From a phage, in the sequence record PZ452599.1: a stretch of DNA of 51,263 bases. One strand, written 5' to 3'. Each line of letters begins with the position of its first letter. Within the stretch, counting starts at the first letter, position 1. The notes below the pieces were generated by a model that saw only the letters and a list, made by a program, of their open reading frames with translations, was not told where the DNA came from and made no database searches. Below, piece after piece: positions 27,702 through 45,815 of this stretch. The translations under genes were made by a program, and so were the position numbers.

Positions 27702-29699
27702 ATGATTCCAAATATCGAAAAACAAATATCAGCGTTAGGCGAGTCAGTAATAAAAAGCATCCAAGAGCGATTCACGGTTGGCAATATAGTGCCTTATCCT
27801 TATCAGTGCGTTGCGTATGCCGAGATCGCAAAGCGCATGAAAAACTATGAGCATCCTTTCTTTGTTAAGGCTTCTGTGTCGGCTGGTAAAACATTGATGT
27901 TTGCGATGGTTGCGGCGCAATGCCGCAAGATGGGATTGAAAATGATGGTCCTTGCTCGCCAGGCTGAAATTGTTGATCAGGATTCAGAAGAGATCAGCAA
28001 TCTTGGCGTGCCAAACTCAATCTATTGCGCCGGACTGAAAACAAAAAGCGCATACTTTCCGATCGTAGTCGGTTCTGAGGGCACTGTAGTAAACGGATTG
28101 TTTAAGTCGTTAGGTGATTATGTTCCGCACGTTATCGGTATTGATGAATGTCACCAGGTGGATTGGGAGGATCTCGCTGATGCGATAGAAAATAATGAAT
28201 CTTACCAGCAGATGACCACTAAGAAGGATTTGCCTGTACTGATTGGAGAAGAACAGCAATTTGATTCCAATGGCGATCCAATGTTCGGAACAGGGCGCAC
28301 ACAGTACACCGTAATAATCATGGAAATGATGCGCAGGTGTCGCGAGGCATACGGGCACGAATTGCGAATATTCGGTATGACTGGATCTGAGTTTCGCGGC
28401 GTGGTTCCAATACTGGTTGAAGATAAGAACAAAAAGGGATTCTGGCGTGAGCAGGTGACTAACATAGACACAAACTACTTAATCAAATTTGGCTCGGTAG
28501 TGCCAACAAATTTCGGCGACGTAGGCGATCTGGGGTATGACCTTTCAGAGTTCGAAGCCAGTAGCGAGGATGGCGTTTCAGACTTTGACGCTAAAACATT
28601 GCGCAAGATGGAAGAAAAGATCCATCAAGACGCAACAATGACACAGAAAATCATGGCTAAAGTCCATGAGATATGCAAAGACAGGAACGGAGTTTTAGTT
28701 ACATGCGCAGGGGAAAGACACTGCAAGGAGGCCGCCGCCGCACTGCCGCCAGGCGTTGAATACAGGATCATAACTGGCAAGACTGGAGATAATCAGCGTA
28801 AAGAGTGGCTGAGGGAGGCATACGAGGGAAAAGTAAAATACATCTTCCAGGTACAGGCGCTTACCACTGGCGTTAACGTTCCGTTTTGGGATACTTCGGT
28901 AATACTGAGAAAGATAGGATCTCTAACATTGCTTATCCAGCTTTTGGGGCGCGGTATGCGACTGCTTAAGCAATGGCACATTGAGCAGGGATTCAAGAAA
29001 AAAGACCATCTTGTATTGGATTTTGCCGGTACTATGGATGAGTTAGGGGATTTGTATTTCGATCCAATCCTTGAGCAAGCGCAATTCCAAAAGAGATTTA
29101 CAAACGGGAAAGAGCCTAAGACTTGTCCGATATGTGGAACGCTAAACAGCTTTTACGCTCGCCGATGTATGCACGTAGACGATAACGGGAAGAGATGCGA
29201 GCATTTTTGGACTTACAGAATTTGCGAGGACCAGGTAGATCCGAGAACGAAAAAGATAATCAAGCGCGGTTGCGGAACAAAAAACGACGTAGTGGCGAGA
29301 GTATGCCGTTGTTGCGATATTTCTCTTGTCGATCCTAACGAGAAGTTAAGCGGCAAGCACTACACCAAAAACGATTGGTGCAACGTTAAATCTTTCCGCG
29401 TTGATATGACGAAAAACCAGAAAGGAATTGTTTTTTGCTATGAGCTTGAGGCCAACGGCGACACGTTCAAGGCATACGAAAGATTTTTCCCTGAGTCAGA
29501 AAGCAACATTTGCCGGACGATATGGAGAAAAATAGCATTGCAGCACATACCGGATCGCAAGATTGCTGGTATGGTGGCGAGCTATAGAAATGCGCGTAAA
29601 ATAATGTCATACGCTCATCACATCATGCCTCCTGTACGCGTAACGCATCGCAAAAACGGCAAAGGTGAGGATAACATTGCAAAACGGGAGTTTGTTTAA
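27702..29699 (+). CDS. SF2 DNA helicase (DExH-box) with C-terminal Cys-rich zinc-finger region
   Basis: 665 aa; Walker A SVSAGKT, Walker B GIDECHQ; C-terminal CPICG...CxxC clusters. Confidence 0.75.
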   Translation: MIPNIEKQISALGESVIKSIQERFTVGNIVPYPYQCVAYAEIAKRMKNYEHPFFVKASVSAGKTLMFAMVAAQCRKMGLKMMVLARQAEIVDQDSEEISNLGVPNSIYCAGLKTKSAYFPIVVGSEGTVVNGLFKSLGDYVPHVIGIDECHQVDWEDLADAIENNESYQQMTTKKDLPVLIGEEQQFDSNGDPMFGTGRTQYTVIIMEMMRRCREAYGHELRIFGMTGSEFRGVVPILVEDKNKKGFWREQVTNIDTNYLIKFGSVVPTNFGDVGDLGYDLSEFEASSEDGVSDFDAKTLRKMEEKIHQDATMTQKIMAKVHEICKDRNGVLVTCAGERHCKEAAAALPPGVEYRIITGKTGDNQRKEWLREAYEGKVKYIFQVQALTTGVNVPFWDTSVILRKIGSLTLLIQLLGRGMRLLKQWHIEQGFKKKDHLVLDFAGTMDELGDLYFDPILEQAQFQKRFTNGKEPKTCPICGTLNSFYARRCMHVDDNGKRCEHFWTYRICEDQVDPRTKKIIKRGCGTKNDVVARVCRCCDISLVDPNEKLSGKHYTKNDWCNVKSFRVDMTKNQKGIVFCYELEANGDTFKAYERFFPESESNICRTIWRKIALQHIPDRKIAGMVASYRNARKIMSYAHHIMPPVRVTHRKNGKGEDNIAKREFV

Positions 29700-30118
29700 T
29701 GGCTATAACTGATAAAGGCGATTATCTTGAGTTTTACGAAAGGGATCCAACCGACACGAGAAGGGAAGTTAATCACCAGATAGATAGTTTTCAGTGGTTG
29801 ACTTATGCTCATCCTTATTTGCTGGCGTGGCATACGGTAAACGAGAATGAGAAGTCTAAAGCAACGGCGATGATTGATCAGCAGTCCGGCTTGGTTAAGG
29901 GAGTAAGCGATTTCATCATCCTGATTGGTTTAAACGGAAAATACCCCTTTGCAGCGATTGAGATCAAACGAGTGAATAAATCAGGCAAGGGGAAAGCATC
30001 ACCAGTCAGCGATGAACAAAAGGCTTTTTTGCGTCGCGTTCGCAGCTTAGGAGGATTCGCTGCGGTAGCCTACGGATTCAATCAGTTTAAGTTGGCTATT
30101 GAATACATGCTTAAATAG
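29699..30118 (+). CDS. VRR-NUC domain nuclease
   Basis: 139 aa; TAATG overlap with helicase; GVSDFIILIG...AIEIK PD-(D/E)XK-like motif. Confidence 0.55.
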   Translation: MAITDKGDYLEFYERDPTDTRREVNHQIDSFQWLTYAHPYLLAWHTVNENEKSKATAMIDQQSGLVKGVSDFIILIGLNGKYPFAAIEIKRVNKSGKGKASPVSDEQKAFLRRVRSLGGFAAVAYGFNQFKLAIEYMLK

Positions 30119-30158: not shown

Positions 30159-30198
30159 TCAATAACACGAGATGGCTTTTAATAGCGGAGAAATGAAA

Positions 30199-30924
30199 AT
30201 GGCTAAAGATATTTTAGATAAAGACACCCATGACGCATTCGTTAGCTTTGAGCAGTTGGAGAGAGAAACGTTTATAGGGAATGCCCTTGCAACTGGAGGC
30301 CATTACCAGGCAGTAAAGCCAAATCAATATTATAAGGTAAGCGGAAACCGATACGCTGGAAGCACTACGCCGGACGTTGTGCGAGATATGTGGAGCACGC
30401 CTCAAGAGATCGTGGAGTGGATGGAATCAGAATTTGGTGAATACGATCTCGACGCGGCAGCAAGCCAGGAAAACGCAGTTTGCGAGAAGTTCTATAGCAA
30501 GGAGACAAACTGCTTAAAGCGTTGGTGGGGTAGCAACAAGCACGTATGGCTTAACCCGCCGTACAGCAACCCAACTCCATTTATCAAGAAAGCAATTGAG
30601 CAAATGGAGCACAACAACCAAATTGATGTTTTGTTGCCAGCAGACAACTCTACAGCATGGTTTTATGAGGCGCAGAAAAACGCGGCTGAAATTATCTGGA
30701 TCACTGGCGAGGTTTACGAAGAGGGTGGAGTAGAATACTCCCGCACCGGAAGAATTGCCTTTGTGTCTGGATTGACTGGTGAGCCTGTGCAGGGCAACAA
30801 CAAGGGAAGCGTGATTTTTGTCATGCGCAAACTTAAAGAAGGCGAGGAGCAGAAAACGCGATACGTTAAGATCAGCGATATTTGCCCTTCTGTAACCGAA
30901 CGTCGCGCACGCAAACGGAGCTAA
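30199..30924 (+). CDS. dam: DNA N6-adenine methyltransferase (phage Dam-like)
   Basis: 241 aa from ATG 30199 (GGAG 9 nt upstream); catalytic NPPY motif (VWLNPPYSN). Confidence 0.7.
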   Translation: MAKDILDKDTHDAFVSFEQLERETFIGNALATGGHYQAVKPNQYYKVSGNRYAGSTTPDVVRDMWSTPQEIVEWMESEFGEYDLDAAASQENAVCEKFYSKETNCLKRWWGSNKHVWLNPPYSNPTPFIKKAIEQMEHNNQIDVLLPADNSTAWFYEAQKNAAEIIWITGEVYEEGGVEYSRTGRIAFVSGLTGEPVQGNNKGSVIFVMRKLKEGEEQKTRYVKISDICPSVTERRARKRS

Positions 30925-31441: not shown

Positions 31442-31673
31442 GCAAGGGAGAGATGCGGTATGGAATCACGCTAAAGAATGCGGTATTGCCGACGATATAA
31501 AGAAGATCGCGCAATACTTTGATATTGCAGATGTGAGCATAATTAGCGGCGACAAGATGACTTTCCTCAAGGAAAGGCCGCGAAAAATGGTAAGAGTTCC
31601 AGCAGTTCCAACAAAAATTGATTTCAAAGAGGCAATGGCTAAAATCCGAGAGCCTCGCAAATATTATAAATGA
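31431..31673 (+). CDS. hypothetical protein
   Basis: 80 aa from ATG 31431; overlaps upstream stop (coupling); track start 31383 lies inside the preceding gene. Confidence 0.45.
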   Translation: MKVEQGRDAVWNHAKECGIADDIKKIAQYFDIADVSIISGDKMTFLKERPRKMVRVPAVPTKIDFKEAMAKIREPRKYYK

Positions 31674-31767
31674 GGATAGTTATCATGTGGCGCTTGTTTG
31701 TTCTACCGTTACCCGTTATCATCGCTGTTACAGTTATGTACCATATAGTGATGAGATAGGTAGCAGA

Positions 31768-32883
31768 ATGAAAAATGTAAAAATTACAGATGAGCAATTC
31801 AAGATCGAACGGGCGGCAGGTAAGACATATAAACAGATCGCTCAAGAGTACGGAATGAATGTGAGAAGCGTCGAGCGTCGCGCGGCGCGTCTTGCAAAGC
31901 AAGGACAGTTATCGACCATCGGAGCGCCTGGTTTTGGTGTTCATGGTGAGTCAGTAATGACTGACAAAGAAGGAAATATAATCCTCAAGTGGACCAAAAC
32001 CAGCAAGGATAAAGAGCAATTAGAGGCACTGATGCGCGCAGCTATGGAGGCGTTTAGCGAGGAAGTGCCGCGATTAGATCCAGTTCCATTGCAGGAGCGT
32101 AACTATAATGAAACGCTTTCATTGTATCCGATCTTTGACATGCACTTAGGCGCTATGGCCCATAAGCACGAATGCGGCGAAAATTGGGATACTGCTACGG
32201 CGGAGCGCGTTATGAATAACTTTATCGACTATGCTTTGATGTGCGCACCGGACAGCGAAAAGGCTGTTATCCTGATTGGTGGCGATATGCTGCATAGCGA
32301 CGGCCTTGAGGCGGTGACACCTGCAAGCGGTCACGTACTTGATCAAGATAGCCGATATGCAAAATTGGTTTACGTTGCAATCCGCGCAATGCGTCGCGCA
32401 ATTAATAAAATGCTGTTAAAGCATAAACATGTTGAGGTCCAGATCGTAGAGGGCAATCACGACCAATCAGGAATGATTTGGCTACGCGCAGCGATGGCGG
32501 CAGCATATGAGAACGAGCCGCGCGTTTACGTTGATGTTTCTCCTCGCGTTGTTCACCACACGCAATACGGAAAAACTTTCCTTGCGTACCATCACGGGCA
32601 CACAGTGCGCAAACCTGAGACTTTGCTAATGATGTGCGCGTCAGATTGGCGGGAGGACTTCGGAAACTCAAAAACGATGTATGCGCACGTAGGGCACTGG
32701 CATCACCAGACCGTAACAGAAACGTCGCTTGGCATCGTGGAGGTGCATAGCACCCTGGCGGCAAAAGACGCATACGCCGCGCGAGGTGGCTGGAGATCTC
32801 GACGCCGTGCAGCGGTTATCATTTACGACAAAGAGCATGGAGAAGTGGGGCGATTTGTTCACTATCCAGAAATGATGAATTGA
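31768..32883 (+). CDS. metallophosphoesterase with N-terminal HTH-like domain
   Basis: 371 aa from ATG 31768; calcineurin-like motifs DMH, GDMLHSD, GNHDQ, GHWHH; N-terminal KTYKQIAQEYGMNVRSVERRAARL HTH-like segment. Confidence 0.6.
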   Translation: MKNVKITDEQFKIERAAGKTYKQIAQEYGMNVRSVERRAARLAKQGQLSTIGAPGFGVHGESVMTDKEGNIILKWTKTSKDKEQLEALMRAAMEAFSEEVPRLDPVPLQERNYNETLSLYPIFDMHLGAMAHKHECGENWDTATAERVMNNFIDYALMCAPDSEKAVILIGGDMLHSDGLEAVTPASGHVLDQDSRYAKLVYVAIRAMRRAINKMLLKHKHVEVQIVEGNHDQSGMIWLRAAMAAAYENEPRVYVDVSPRVVHHTQYGKTFLAYHHGHTVRKPETLLMMCASDWREDFGNSKTMYAHVGHWHHQTVTETSLGIVEVHSTLAAKDAYAARGGWRSRRRAAVIIYDKEHGEVGRFVHYPEMMN

Positions 32884-32929
32884 TGAATTTTTATTTAAAT
32901 CAATGACAAATTAAATCAAAAACTTGCAA

Positions 32930-32960
32930 AGGGGCGGCGTTTGTCGCCTCTTTTTTTTGT
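32930..32960 (+). terminator. intrinsic terminator after metallophosphoesterase gene
   Basis: GC-rich short hairpin followed by T8. Confidence 0.5.
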
Positions 32961-33029
32961 TTAATTTTTTTACCATGTGCGTTTATCATGCGGTCAATAT
33001 ATTGACTTTAATTAATATGGAGAATAAAA

Positions 33030-33245
33030 ATGAAAGATTTTATTAACGCAGCTACCGCCGGATCTGGCGGTTCATCTATCGCAAGCGCCGCTACAGGGCA
33101 GTTAACCATTGCTATTGCTAGCTTTGTTTTAATGGCTGCATTCGGTGCATGGGGCGCTTACCTTCGCTGGCGTGATAGTAAAAAATTCCACGAGGCGATC
33201 GAAAAAGGTGATATTCAAAAAGCTATTGAGATCAGGGGCAAGTAA
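33030..33245 (+). CDS. holin (pinholin-like, two TMDs)
   Basis: 71 aa; GGAG RBS; Gly/Ala/Ser-rich weak TMD1 plus hydrophobic TMD2 and charged C-terminus; directly upstream of endolysin. Confidence 0.6.
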
Positions 33246-44817: not shown

Positions 44818-45027
44818 ATGGATCAGAACAAAACAGCAAAATATAAATTCACTGACGACTACGGAGACACTATCGACGTTTATCAGCGTGGGAATCAGAT
44901 CTTTATAGATGGCACTTTCGAATATGGCCGGATGCCAGACTTTCGGGGAATACTTTCGGCAGATAGCGCGCGACGCATGGCGAACGTGTTAAATAAACTG
45001 GCGGCAAAGATTGAGGCGATGCAATGA
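44818..45027 (+). CDS. hypothetical protein
   Basis: 69 aa; tightly packed after paralog 2. Confidence 0.45.
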   Translation: MDQNKTAKYKFTDDYGDTIDVYQRGNQIFIDGTFEYGRMPDFRGILSADSARRMANVLNKLAAKIEAMQ

Positions 45028-45815
45028 AAAAATACACTTTCGAACTGTGGGGCAAGAAGTACGAATTAATCACCAGCAAGCCGATTGTTATCGTTGATCT
45101 GGACGGCACGCTATCGGAAGGATCGCATCGTTTGCATTTGCTGCCAACTGAAAACTTGCACCTTACGGAATCGTGGCGCGAGTTTAACAGGGCCGCCGCC
45201 GGAGATTCACCGATTAAAAGCACTATCGCGGTTATTAACGGTTTATGGGTGTCGGGATTTGCCATCGTCATCTTGACCGGACGCAGCGACGAGGTTCGCT
45301 ATGAAACCTGCAAATGGTTGAATGAGAACGGCGTGAAGTTTGACGAAATCATCATGCGCCGCCAGGAGGACAACCGAAAGGATACGGTTATTAAAGAAGA
45401 AGCCTTGCGCGCTATTGGCCTGGACAACATTGTTTGCGCCTTTGACGATTCGCCGAACGTGGTTAAGCACTTCCGCAGCTTGGGGATCACAACCTATCAG
45501 GTCACGGAATACGACAAGCCACACGCTCACATACAATCTCACGGCGTGGATGAATTGAAGTCAAAAATCGAATGCGAAGGCGAGCACTGTTTTAGTGTGG
45601 TTGATGGTAAATGTTTGCGTTGCGGCGTGGAATCAATCAAGATCACGAAGCGCGCCCGATTCGTCGGCAGCAAAGACAGCCTGGTCAATGCCAGCTTTAT
45701 CAAAGGCAAGGTTTATGATGTTCATAGCCATGATAAAAACCGATTCTTTTTGTGGGATGAAAAAGGTTTTGGCTGGTGCTTTAAGCATGACGACGGCGAT
45801 TTTGTTAATGCGTAA
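45024..45815 (+). CDS. HAD-family phosphatase with C-terminal zinc-ribbon / FxPGxxY-like domain
   Basis: 263 aa; HAD motif I VIVDLDGTL, motif II ILTGRSD, motif IV FDDS; C-terminal CxxC...CxxC followed by FIKGKVYDV...FLWDEKG. Confidence 0.6.
   Translation: MKKYTFELWGKKYELITSKPIVIVDLDGTLSEGSHRLHLLPTENLHLTESWREFNRAAAGDSPIKSTIAVINGLWVSGFAIVILTGRSDEVRYETCKWLNENGVKFDEIIMRRQEDNRKDTVIKEEALRAIGLDNIVCAFDDSPNVVKHFRSLGITTYQVTEYDKPHAHIQSHGVDELKSKIECEGEHCFSVVDGKCLRCGVESIKITKRARFVGSKDSLVNASFIKGKVYDVHSHDKNRFFLWDEKGFGWCFKHDDGDFVNA

What the first reader, a model, noticed from the sequence alone, without database searches (positions are those of the whole stretch)
31768..32883. Metallophosphoesterase fused to an N-terminal HTH-like domain
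All calcineurin-like metal-binding motifs are present (DMH, GDxxH, GNHD, GHWH), preceded by about 60 residues with a helix-turn-helix-like segment. The gene sits between the DNA-metabolism genes and the lysis cassette, so a DNA-targeted phosphoesterase or a phosphatase acting on host signalling are both possible.
Basis: partly seen in the sequence, partly recalled or inferred. Interest (0 to 1): 0.45.

Follow-up and report, generated by a model that had tools for sequence, protein, structure and literature searches.

The report
Phage HTH-fused Mre11-like metallophosphoesterase
This gene of a T1-like E. coli phage encodes a real enzyme with a small DNA-binding-type domain fused to a nuclease-like metal-dependent phosphoesterase. 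It belongs to a very large, already catalogued but never tested phage family, and is a candidate for the unidentified enzyme that breaks down host DNA in T1-type phages.

Summary
Window 31768..32883 (+) is a 371-aa gene of a Drexlerviridae (T1-like) phage, 100% identical to a GenBank protein annotated "DNA repair exonuclease" (PHROG 704, E=7e-149).

A high-confidence AlphaFold model (pLDDT 93) shows three parts:
- a basic three-helix HTH, residues 8-44;
- a conserved beta-hairpin plus helix, residues 56-99;
- a metallophosphoesterase (MPE) domain, residues 116-365.

The metal-site residues D124, H126, D173, N230, H231, H276 and H312 are invariant in 146 diverse homologues. H310 is H or D.

In unrelated phages the gene sits among replication, recombination and nucleotide-metabolism genes. 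In E. coli prophages it lies directly upstream of dnaB. In this window a terminator separates it from the lysis cassette.

The best reading is an autonomous, HTH-tethered DNA nuclease of phage DNA metabolism. T5 A1, an HTH-plus-MPE protein that degrades host DNA, is the closest functional analogue, but homology to it is not significant.

The feature is already catalogued and its function is untested. Interest is modest.

The parts
31768..32883 (+). Complete CDS of the HTH-MPE protein (371 aa plus stop); orthologue of T1 gp16 and, by synteny, TLS Gp66
   Evidence: ORF and translation. PHROG 704 E=7e-149. 100% identical to the phage Kalemo 'DNA repair exonuclease'. T1 gp16 is 377 aa and starts at the equivalent position.
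31789..31899 (+). N-terminal three-helix HTH domain (residues 8-44; helices 8-16, 21-28, 32-44); basic, pI 10.2 for residues 1-50
   Evidence: AF2 models. Pfam Sigma70_r4_2, HTH_23 and HTH_28 sub-threshold in this protein. Only HTH families dominate the N-terminal hits of 26 family members, best E=5e-8. Family profile versus GerE E=0.02. Local fold matches to LiaR, VraR and DosR DNA-binding domains at 1.9-4.6 A over 43-49 alignment columns, but E about 1.
31933..32064 (+). Family-specific connector: beta-hairpin (56-65, 71-80) plus helix (82-99), carrying conserved G69 and the W75-x-K77 motif
   Evidence: AF2. W75 is conserved in 139 of 146 sequences and K/R77 in 132 of 146. No significant structural match. 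Also shared with PHROG 284, which matches from residue 64.
32113..32862 (+). Calcineurin-like metallophosphoesterase (MPE) domain, residues 116-365
32137..32145 (+). MPE motif I, D124-M-H126
   Evidence: D124 and H126 are invariant in 146 sequences. The motif aligns to 'SDWHLG' of T. maritima Mre11.
32281..32295 (+). MPE motif II, G172-D173-M-L-H176 (Mre11-style GDxxH)
   Evidence: D173 is invariant and H176 is present in 141 of 146. The motif aligns to 'GDLLHS' of T. maritima Mre11.
32314..32355 (+). Family-specific conserved loop V-T184-P-x-S-G-H-x-L191-D192-x-D-x-R196, between motifs II and III
   Evidence: T184 is invariant; D192 and R196 are each present in 140 of 146. pLDDT is above 95. 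Its role is inferred (substrate-binding loop), not shown.
32452..32463 (+). MPE motif III, G229-N230-H231-D232
   Evidence: N230 and H231 are invariant. The motif aligns to 'GNHD' of T. maritima Mre11.
32590..32601 (+). MPE motif IV, H275-H276-G-H278
   Evidence: H276 is invariant. H278 is H in 132 and D in 14 sequences.
32692..32703 (+). MPE motif V, G309-H310-W-H312
   Evidence: H312 is invariant. H310 is H in 140 and D in 6 sequences. The motif aligns to 'GHIH' of T. maritima Mre11.
32928..32963 (+). Intrinsic-terminator-like hairpin (11 pairs, 6 GC) plus T-tract, closing the transcription unit that ends with this gene, before the holin
   Evidence: Terminators are annotated at the same position after T1 gp16 and AKS96_44.

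Best explanation
The gene encodes an autonomous DNA-directed metallophosphoesterase nuclease of the phage's DNA-metabolism module.

Mechanism, inferred from the superfamily's established chemistry:
- A binuclear Mn2+/Mg2+ centre is held by D124 and H126 (site 1), D173 (bridging), N230, H276 and H310 (site 2), and H312 (site 1).
- H231 acts as the transition-state or leaving-group histidine.
- The centre hydrolyses DNA phosphodiester bonds at ends or nicks, as Mre11/SbcD and PolD DP1 do.

The protein does not use a Rad50/SbcC ATPase or a polymerase partner to reach DNA. It carries its own basic N-terminal HTH, joined by a conserved beta-hairpin/helix connector, that tethers it to DNA or possibly to a partner protein.

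Biological role, inferred: processing of DNA ends and intermediates during phage replication and recombination. In virulent T1-like phages it probably also contributes to breakdown of host DNA for nucleotide re-use.

Shown here: the ORF, the domain architecture, active-site conservation, the fold class, the absence of a Rad50-like partner, and the genomic contexts. Not shown: catalysis, substrate, DNA binding, and biological role.
For: Active site:
- All MPE metal-ligand residues are invariant or conservatively replaced in 146 homologues of 30-85% identity.
- They align to the motifs of a solved Mre11.

Fold:
- The model is confident (pLDDT 93.2).

HTH:
- Present throughout the family.
- Basic, pI 10.2.

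Context:
- In this window the gene is the last gene of the helicase, VRR-NUC, Dam and following unit, and is closed by a terminator.
- T7-like phage: next to a 5'-3' exonuclease, endonuclease VII, dNMP kinase and ligase.
- T4-like contig: next to a PIF1-type helicase and a 5'-3' exonuclease.
- Another contig: next to a DUF3799 exonuclease and an AAA_24 (Sak4-type) protein.
- Other phages: next to ThyX, dCMP deaminase, a MazG-type pyrophosphatase or a DNA methylase.
- Other phages: next to PNK and dNMP kinase.
- E. coli prophages: directly upstream of dnaB.
- It is a core gene of Drexlerviridae, present in 508 of 522 genomes (PMC13164509).

Precedent:
- T5 A1 is a putative MPE. Some of its homologues carry N-terminal HTH domains.
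- A1 is necessary and sufficient for host DNA degradation (bioRxiv 10.64898/2026.04.02.716235).
- T1 and TLS degrade host DNA and re-use the nucleotides, and the responsible gene is unidentified (PMC11447400).
Against: - No biochemical or genetic data exist for any member that I could find.
- Sequence-level links to Mre11 are not significant on their own (E 0.12-0.9).
- The Pfam Metallophos hit is below the gathering score (16.8 versus 21.5 bits).
- The HTH assignment for this particular protein is sub-threshold. It could mediate protein contacts rather than DNA binding.
- Genomic contexts are varied and only point to DNA and nucleotide metabolism in general.
Confidence: 0.6

Rival explanations
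1. It is specifically the host-chromosome-degrading DNase of T1-like phages, a functional analogue of T5 A1 and the function genetically defined as defective in T1 'increased transduction' mutants. Its main role would be host shut-off and supply of dNMPs for phage DNA synthesis.
For: - T1 and TLS degrade the host genome and re-use the nucleotides, and the responsible gene is still unidentified (PMC11447400).
- T5 A1 is a putative MPE with the same structural relatives (DSB-repair nucleases and proofreading subunits). It is necessary and sufficient for host DNA degradation.
- A1 homologues also carry N-terminal HTH domains.
- In several phages dNMP kinase and PNK genes follow directly.
- The gene is core in Drexlerviridae.
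Against: - Orthologues 65% identical sit in integrated, CI/integrase-bearing E. coli prophages. There they lie in the early rightward operon directly upstream of dnaB. An unregulated host DNase at that position would be hard to reconcile with lysogeny.
- Profile-profile similarity to the A1 family is not significant (probability 18-31%).
- The gene is at the end of its operon, not among the earliest genes.
- The family occurs in phages of many lifestyles.
Confidence: 0.22
2. It is a nucleic-acid end-healing phosphoesterase (3'-phosphatase or 2',3'-cyclic phosphodiesterase). It would work with polynucleotide kinase and ligase to repair broken DNA or RNA, for example damage inflicted by host defence nucleases.
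For: - PNK/phosphatase genes lie directly downstream in Webervirus, a Yersinia myovirus and a Pantoea T7-like phage, the last also with a ligase.
- The same adjacency is reported across Drexlerviridae (PMC13164509).
- MPE domains perform this chemistry in bacterial Pnkp (own knowledge).
- This window also encodes a PNKP-type HAD phosphatase at 45024-45815.
Against: - The neighbouring PNK proteins already carry their own HAD 3'-phosphatase domain.
- In this window the PNKP-like gene is 12 kb away.
- Most contexts lack PNK or ligase.
- The top structural neighbours are phosphodiester-cleaving nucleases.
Confidence: 0.08
3. It is a protein phosphatase acting on host signalling, like lambda PPase/NinI.
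For: - It belongs to the same superfamily.
- Lambda carries a Ser/Thr phosphatase between its replication and lysis genes (own knowledge).
Against: - The PPP signatures GDxHG, GDxVDRG and GNHE are not present.
- The HTH fusion and DNA-metabolism contexts argue for a nucleic-acid substrate.
Confidence: 0.04
4. It is primarily a regulator or adaptor. The sigma-70 region 4 / LuxR-like HTH would bind a promoter or origin, or RNA polymerase or the replicative helicase. The MPE domain would serve as a scaffold, like the inactive B-subunits of eukaryotic polymerases, or as a modulatory enzyme.
For: - The best Pfam hit of the N-terminus is Sigma70_r4_2.
- T5 A1 is reported to interact with RNA polymerase.
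- The prophage orthologue abuts dnaB with a 19-nt gap.
Against: - The catalytic residues are strictly invariant across the family, which is not expected for a pure scaffold.
- No repeated candidate operator was found around the gene.
- The HTH is the least conserved part: 22% mean identity versus 41% for the MPE domain.
Confidence: 0.06

Closest known systems
PHROG 704 / T1 gp16 / TLS Gp66 ('DNA repair exonuclease', 'putative phosphoesterase', 'proof-reading exonuclease', 'HTH and metallophosphatase domains containing protein')
   Same: This is the family the protein belongs to. It matches full length at E=7e-149 and is 100% identical to the Kalemo protein. Its position upstream of the lysis cassette is conserved in 508 of 522 Drexlerviridae. 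The HTH-plus-MPE architecture is already written into one GenBank annotation.
   Different: Nothing differs structurally. The names are annotation transfers, and no member has been tested experimentally. Several GenBank records start the gene 27 codons too early (GTG 31687).
Mre11 / SbcD nucleases
   Different: There is no C-terminal capping domain, because the protein ends with the MPE core. No Rad50/SbcC ATPase is found in the window or in T1. There is an N-terminal HTH and a hairpin connector instead. Sequence similarity is not significant (E 0.12-0.9). It is not an orthologue.
PolD small subunit DP1 (3'-5' proofreading exonuclease) and polymerase B-subunits
   Different: There is no OB-fold domain and no DP2 partner. 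T1-like phages encode no DNA polymerase. Identity is only 15%.
T5 A1 (pre-early protein; host DNA degradation and second-step transfer)
   Same: Both are phage-encoded stand-alone MPE-type proteins. Some A1-family members have an N-terminal HTH. There is a collinear weak alignment that includes the shared 'NHD..S.WL' stretch after motif III. The same structural relatives are cited for A1.
   Different: A1 is 556 aa with a roughly 200-residue extra region. hhalign probability is only 18-31%. A1 is a pre-early gene restricted mostly to Demerecviridae. This family is found in many phage groups, including temperate ones.
Lambda Ser/Thr protein phosphatase (PPP family)
   Same: Same superfamily, and a comparable map position between replication and lysis genes in a phage.

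Membership tests
Calcineurin-like metallophosphoesterase superfamily | Five conserved motifs providing the binuclear metal site (DxH, GD, GNH[DE], H, GHxH) | tested here: met
   All five are present. They are invariant or conservatively substituted in 146 homologues. They align to Mre11 motifs.
Calcineurin-like metallophosphoesterase superfamily | Beta-alpha-beta-alpha-beta sandwich fold | tested here: met
Calcineurin-like metallophosphoesterase superfamily | Pfam PF00149 score above the gathering threshold | tested here: inconclusive
   16.8 bits versus a cut-off of 21.5, E=0.0099. The family is too divergent for the generic model. This is a detection criterion, not a structural one.
Calcineurin-like metallophosphoesterase superfamily | Metal-dependent phosphoester hydrolysis | not testable with these tools
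   Requires enzyme assays.
PHROG 704 (T1 gp16-like 'DNA repair exonuclease') | Full-length profile match | tested here: met
   E=7.3e-149, residues 5-370 against profile positions 3-389 of 390.
Mre11/SbcD | MPE nuclease domain with GDxxH and GNHD motifs | tested here: met
Mre11/SbcD | C-terminal capping domain following the MPE core | tested here: not met
   The MPE core runs to residue 365 of 371, so there is no additional C-terminal domain.
Mre11/SbcD | Cognate Rad50/SbcC ABC-ATPase partner encoded nearby | tested here: not met
   A Pfam scan of all large ORFs of the window finds none. None is annotated in T1 or in the tiwna region.
PolD DP1 | OB-fold domain plus PDE domain, with a DP2 catalytic partner | tested here: not met
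   The N-terminus is an HTH plus a hairpin, not an OB fold. No polymerase is encoded in T1-like genomes.
T5 A1 family | Detectable sequence homology to A1 | tested here: inconclusive
   hhalign of the family profiles gives probability 18-31% with E about 5e-4 to 1e-3 for a single comparison. The alignment is collinear but weak.
T5 A1 family | Host DNA degradation on expression | not testable with these tools
   Needs ectopic expression or a phage knockout.
PPP Ser/Thr phosphatases (lambda PPase type) | Signature GDxHG, GDxVDRG and GNHE | tested here: not met
HTH DNA-binding domains (LuxR/GerE or sigma-70 region 4 type) | Three- or four-helix bundle with a helix-turn-helix | tested here: met
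   Three helices at 8-16, 21-28 and 32-44, with pLDDT about 90. Only HTH families dominate the Pfam hits of 26 N-termini, best E=5e-8. The exact subclass is not resolved: GerE E=0.02 and Foldseek E about 1.
HTH DNA-binding domains (LuxR/GerE or sigma-70 region 4 type) | Actual DNA binding | not testable with these tools
   Needs EMSA or ChIP. A pI of 10.2 is only suggestive.

The most novel reading that the evidence does not exclude
The HTH-MPE protein is the long-unidentified function by which T1-type phages destroy the host chromosome and recycle its nucleotides. This is the activity missing in the classical T1 mutants with raised transduction frequency. It would be a second, independently evolved example, after T5 A1, of a self-targeting-proof, Rad50-independent MPE DNase used for host takeover. 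A further speculation is that its sigma-region-4-like HTH directs it to DNA or to RNA polymerase.
Probability: 0.22. Interest if true: 0.6.

Novelty: already known. Interest (0 to 1): 0.33.

Why it matters
The family is very large: 4615 clusters at 50% identity, and about 4% of sequenced phage genomes. It is a core gene of Drexlerviridae and has a strictly conserved active site. Even so, its function has never been tested, and its database names ('DNA repair exonuclease', 'DNA polymerase II small subunit', 'oxidoreductase', 'Rrf2 regulator') are transfers or guesses.

Two practical points follow.
- It is a concrete candidate for the enzyme behind host-DNA degradation in T1 and TLS, which the TLS authors state they could not identify. 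This is now easy to test by the same assays just used for T5 A1.
- If it is that enzyme, knocking it out should raise generalized transduction by T1-like phages, and this would matter for phage-therapy safety.

If it is instead a replication or recombination nuclease, it is an example of an Mre11-like enzyme that replaces Rad50 with a built-in HTH.

Tried and rejected
- Sequence search of PDB with the single protein found nothing relevant.
- With family profiles, only weak GerE and Mre11 hits appeared. Structure prediction was therefore needed.
Contexts were gathered from annotated phage records and the look-up of encoding contigs instead.
- The first Pfam scan of the whole A2 alignment exceeded the residue limit.
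- The PADLOC defence-system library gave no hit.
- NCBIfam gave only sub-threshold hits, PdeM at E=0.003.
- T5 A1 homology was tested three ways and is not significant. A1 is therefore treated as an analogue, not a relative.
- Fold search of the isolated N-terminal 111 residues gave no significant whole-domain match. The hairpin/helix connector therefore remains unclassified.
- The repeat search around the gene gave only short two-copy matches. No candidate operator for the HTH was found.
- Literature searches for functional data on T1 gp16 orthologues found annotation mentions only.
- I considered and rejected a lysis-related role suggested by adjacency to the holin. A terminator separates the units, and in other phages the gene is not near lysis genes.
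- I could not map the classical T1 gene 2.5 onto the sequence with the papers available.

Full report
**Identity of the window.** The region is about 99% identical at the DNA level to Escherichia phages tiwna, Poky, atuna and tonnikala. These are Drexlerviridae, Tempevirinae, Warwickvirus. The window is therefore a T1-like virulent siphophage genome.

**The observation.**
- The ORF runs from ATG 31768 to the stop at 32881-32883 and encodes 371 aa.
- Its translation is 100% identical to a protein of phage Kalemo annotated 'DNA repair exonuclease'.
- It matches PHROG 704 end to end at E=7e-149.

**Start codon.**
- Several GenBank records start the gene at GTG 31687, giving 398 aa.
- T1 gp16, the orthologue, is 377 aa and begins at the position equivalent to ATG 31768. 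Homologue alignments also begin there.
- The 81 nt in question instead contain, in another frame, a conserved hydrophobic micro-ORF (see 'Side observations').

**Family size and conservation.**
- tblastn finds the protein in 2042 of 50,697 phage records. Hosts include Escherichia, Klebsiella, Salmonella, Vibrio, Flavobacterium, Rhodobacter and Ruegeria.
- An exhaustive HMMER scan finds 4615 clusters (50% identity) at E<=1e-3 and 1051 at E<=1e-30.
- In an alignment of 146 diverse members (30-85% identity to the query), D124, H126, D173, T184, N230, H231, H276 and H312 are invariant.
- H310 is H in 140 and D in 6 sequences. H176 is present in 141 of 146.
- Such conservation means the site is catalytic, not a relic.

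**Structure.** AlphaFold2 with that alignment gives mean pLDDT 93.2 and pTM 0.78. The model has three parts:
- a three-helix bundle, residues 8-44;
- a beta-hairpin (56-65, 71-80) plus a helix (82-97; 82-99 in the isolated N-terminal model), carrying the conserved G69 and W75-x-K77;
- an MPE sandwich, residues 116-365, that runs to the C-terminus.

- Generic phosphodiesterases come close behind: MJ0936 14.3, LpxH 13.8, Vps29 13.0, YfcE 12.8.
- PPP-type protein phosphatases score only 9.3-9.6.
- Foldseek gives the same picture, with Mre11 and DP1 at E about 1e-7.
- A profile of the MPE domain retrieves only T. maritima Mre11/SbcD from the PDB sequences. The E-values are weak (0.12-0.56), but motifs I, II, III and V are in register.

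**The N-terminal domain.**
- In this protein, Pfam gives only sub-threshold hits: Sigma70_r4_2 E=3e-4 to 2e-3, HTH_23 and HTH_28.
- When 26 diverse N-termini are scanned one by one, the recurring families are all HTH types. Some hits are clearly significant: HTH_8 5e-8, HTH_30 3e-6, Sigma70_r4_2 3e-6.
- The family profile hits GerE at E=0.02.
- The isolated N-terminal model superposes locally on the LiaR, VraR and DosR DNA-binding domains at 1.9-4.6 A over 43-49 alignment columns, but without statistical significance.
- Residues 1-50 have pI 10.2, against 6.7 for the MPE domain.
- The HTH is the least conserved part: 22% mean identity versus 41%.
- I conclude that an HTH is present. Whether it binds DNA or a protein is untested.
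- The hairpin/helix connector has no recognisable relative.

**What it is not.**
- It is not an Mre11/SbcD orthologue. There is no capping domain, and no Rad50/SbcC-like ATPase among the large ORFs of the window or in T1.
- It is not DP1. There is no OB fold, no DP2, and no phage polymerase.
- It matches no defence-system model.

**Genomic context.** In this window the gene is the last of a rightward unit:
- helicase 27702-29699;
- VRR-NUC 29699-30118;
- Dam 30172-30924;
- small ORFs, then the MPE gene.

The unit is closed by a strong terminator-like hairpin at 32928-32953 followed by a T-tract. The holin (33030), endolysin and spanin follow, behind a promoter-like site at 33002-33031. Terminators are annotated at the same place in T1 and AKS96. 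A 2026 pangenome study found the order exonuclease, holin, endolysin, spanin in 508 of 522 Drexlerviridae. PNK and dNMP kinase are often inserted after the exonuclease (PMC13164509).

Outside Drexlerviridae the neighbours are:
- a DNA methylase (SE2, RcAqua, DSS3-P1);
- ThyX, dCMP deaminase, MazG or a dNMP phosphatase;
- a 5'-3' exonuclease, endonuclease VII, PNK, dNMP kinase and ligase in a T7-like Pantoea phage;
- PNK and dNMP kinase in a Yersinia myovirus;
- a PIF1-type helicase and a 5'-3' exonuclease in a T4-like contig;
- a DUF3799 exonuclease plus an AAA_24 protein.

In 35 of 5426 complete E. coli genomes, an orthologue 65% identical at the protein level lies in an integrated prophage. 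That prophage has a CI-like repressor and an integrase, and the gene sits directly upstream of the replicative DnaB-type helicase gene. The common denominator is the DNA replication, recombination and nucleotide-metabolism module, not lysis.

**Closest functional analogue.**
- T5 A1 is a putative MPE. A 2026 preprint shows it is the sole pre-early gene necessary and sufficient for host DNA degradation. It is described as structurally resembling DSB-repair nucleases and polymerase proofreading subunits.
- Among A1 homologues I found several with N-terminal HTH Pfam domains, so the architecture is parallel.
- Profile-profile comparison of the two families gives only 18-31% probability. The alignment is collinear and includes the shared 'NHD..S.WL' stretch.
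- I therefore treat A1 as an analogue, or at most a very distant relative.
- The TLS reannotation paper states that T1 and TLS degrade the host genome and re-use the nucleotides, and that the responsible gene has not been identified. It lists TLS Gp66, the gene just before the holin Gp67, as a 'proof-reading exonuclease'.

**Interpretation.**
- The best-supported reading (confidence about 0.6) is an autonomous DNA nuclease of the MPE class. It would use a binuclear metal site and a built-in HTH in place of Rad50 or DP2, and would serve phage DNA metabolism. Metal-ligand roles are assigned from established superfamily chemistry.
- Whether its main job is processing replication and recombination intermediates or degrading host DNA cannot be decided here.
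- The prophage context next to dnaB argues against a purely destructive host DNase.
- The dNMP-kinase neighbours, the T5 A1 precedent and the unsolved T1 phenotype argue for at least a contribution to host DNA breakdown.
- T4 gp46/47, which does both (own knowledge), shows the two roles are not exclusive.
- End-healing, protein-phosphatase and regulator/scaffold readings are less likely, for the reasons given under 'rival explanations'.

**Novelty.** The protein, its family and even the HTH-plus-MPE description are already in public annotation. What is missing is any experiment. I rate the feature as already known and of modest interest, with a testable link to an old open question in T1 biology.

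**Side observations.** A conserved unannotated micro-ORF for a single hydrophobic helix lies immediately upstream of the gene in four Drexlerviridae lineages. The other side observations are itemised in the Noticed in passing list.

Noticed in passing
window 31670-31759 (+) (alternative start ATG 31685); also L006 40740-40811, L012 1411-1488, L013 1418-1486: An unannotated micro-ORF encoding a 22-29-aa hydrophobic, single-TM-like peptide lies directly upstream of the MPE gene in four Drexlerviridae lineages:
- window: MRIVIMWRLFVLPLPVIIAVTVMYHIVMR
- T1: MKLYFAVVLTPLISFSVMYFIIM
- Webervirus: MRYIAILITAVVLTIAIFNYAIQLG
- AKS96: MKTLLPLLAVPVTFIIMYFIIC

In the window and in T1 its ATG overlaps the TGA of the upstream gene (ATGA).
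   Followed up: partly
window 31687-31767: GenBank/RefSeq records of close relatives (for example tiwna gp55, 398 aa) start the MPE gene at GTG 31687. This extension is not conserved: T1 gp16 starts at the equivalent of ATG 31768. It also overlaps the micro-ORF in another frame, so it is a probable start-codon mis-annotation.
   Followed up: yes
window 32928-32963 (+), with flanking A-rich arm 32908-32922 and T-rich arm 32953-32967: A strong intrinsic-terminator-like hairpin lies between the MPE gene and the holin. It is flanked by an A-tract and a T-tract, so it may work in both directions. It is followed by a promoter-like site at 33002-33031. Terminators are annotated at the same place in T1 and AKS96.
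   Followed up: partly
L016 9001-10119 and L022 6001-7119 (E. coli prophages integrated next to ogt): Orthologues of the HTH-MPE (65% protein identity) occur in 35 of 5426 complete E. coli genomes. They lie inside a prophage with a CI-like repressor and an integrase, immediately upstream of a DnaB-type replicative helicase gene. PGAP calls them 'hypothetical protein'.
   Followed up: partly
P0342, P0344, P0345, P0346, P0348, P0372, P0384 (homologues of T5 A1, L015 1706-3376): Several T5 A1 homologues (about 45-48% identity) carry precomputed N-terminal HTH Pfam domains: HTH_23, HTH_38, CENP-B_N, HTH_7 and HTH_31. The A1 family therefore also has an HTH-plus-MPE architecture.
   Followed up: partly
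window 45024-45815 (+): This ORF has a PNKP-type HAD phosphatase domain (HAD_PNKP, E=1e-20). In other Drexlerviridae a polynucleotide kinase gene sits directly after the MPE gene, whereas here the PNKP-like gene is 12 kb away.
   Followed up: no
window 32884-33029: There is no stand-alone SH3 (DUF7244) gene between the exonuclease and the holin. A 2026 study reports such a gene in 188 of 522 Drexlerviridae. Here the gap holds only the terminator and a promoter-like site.
   Followed up: partly
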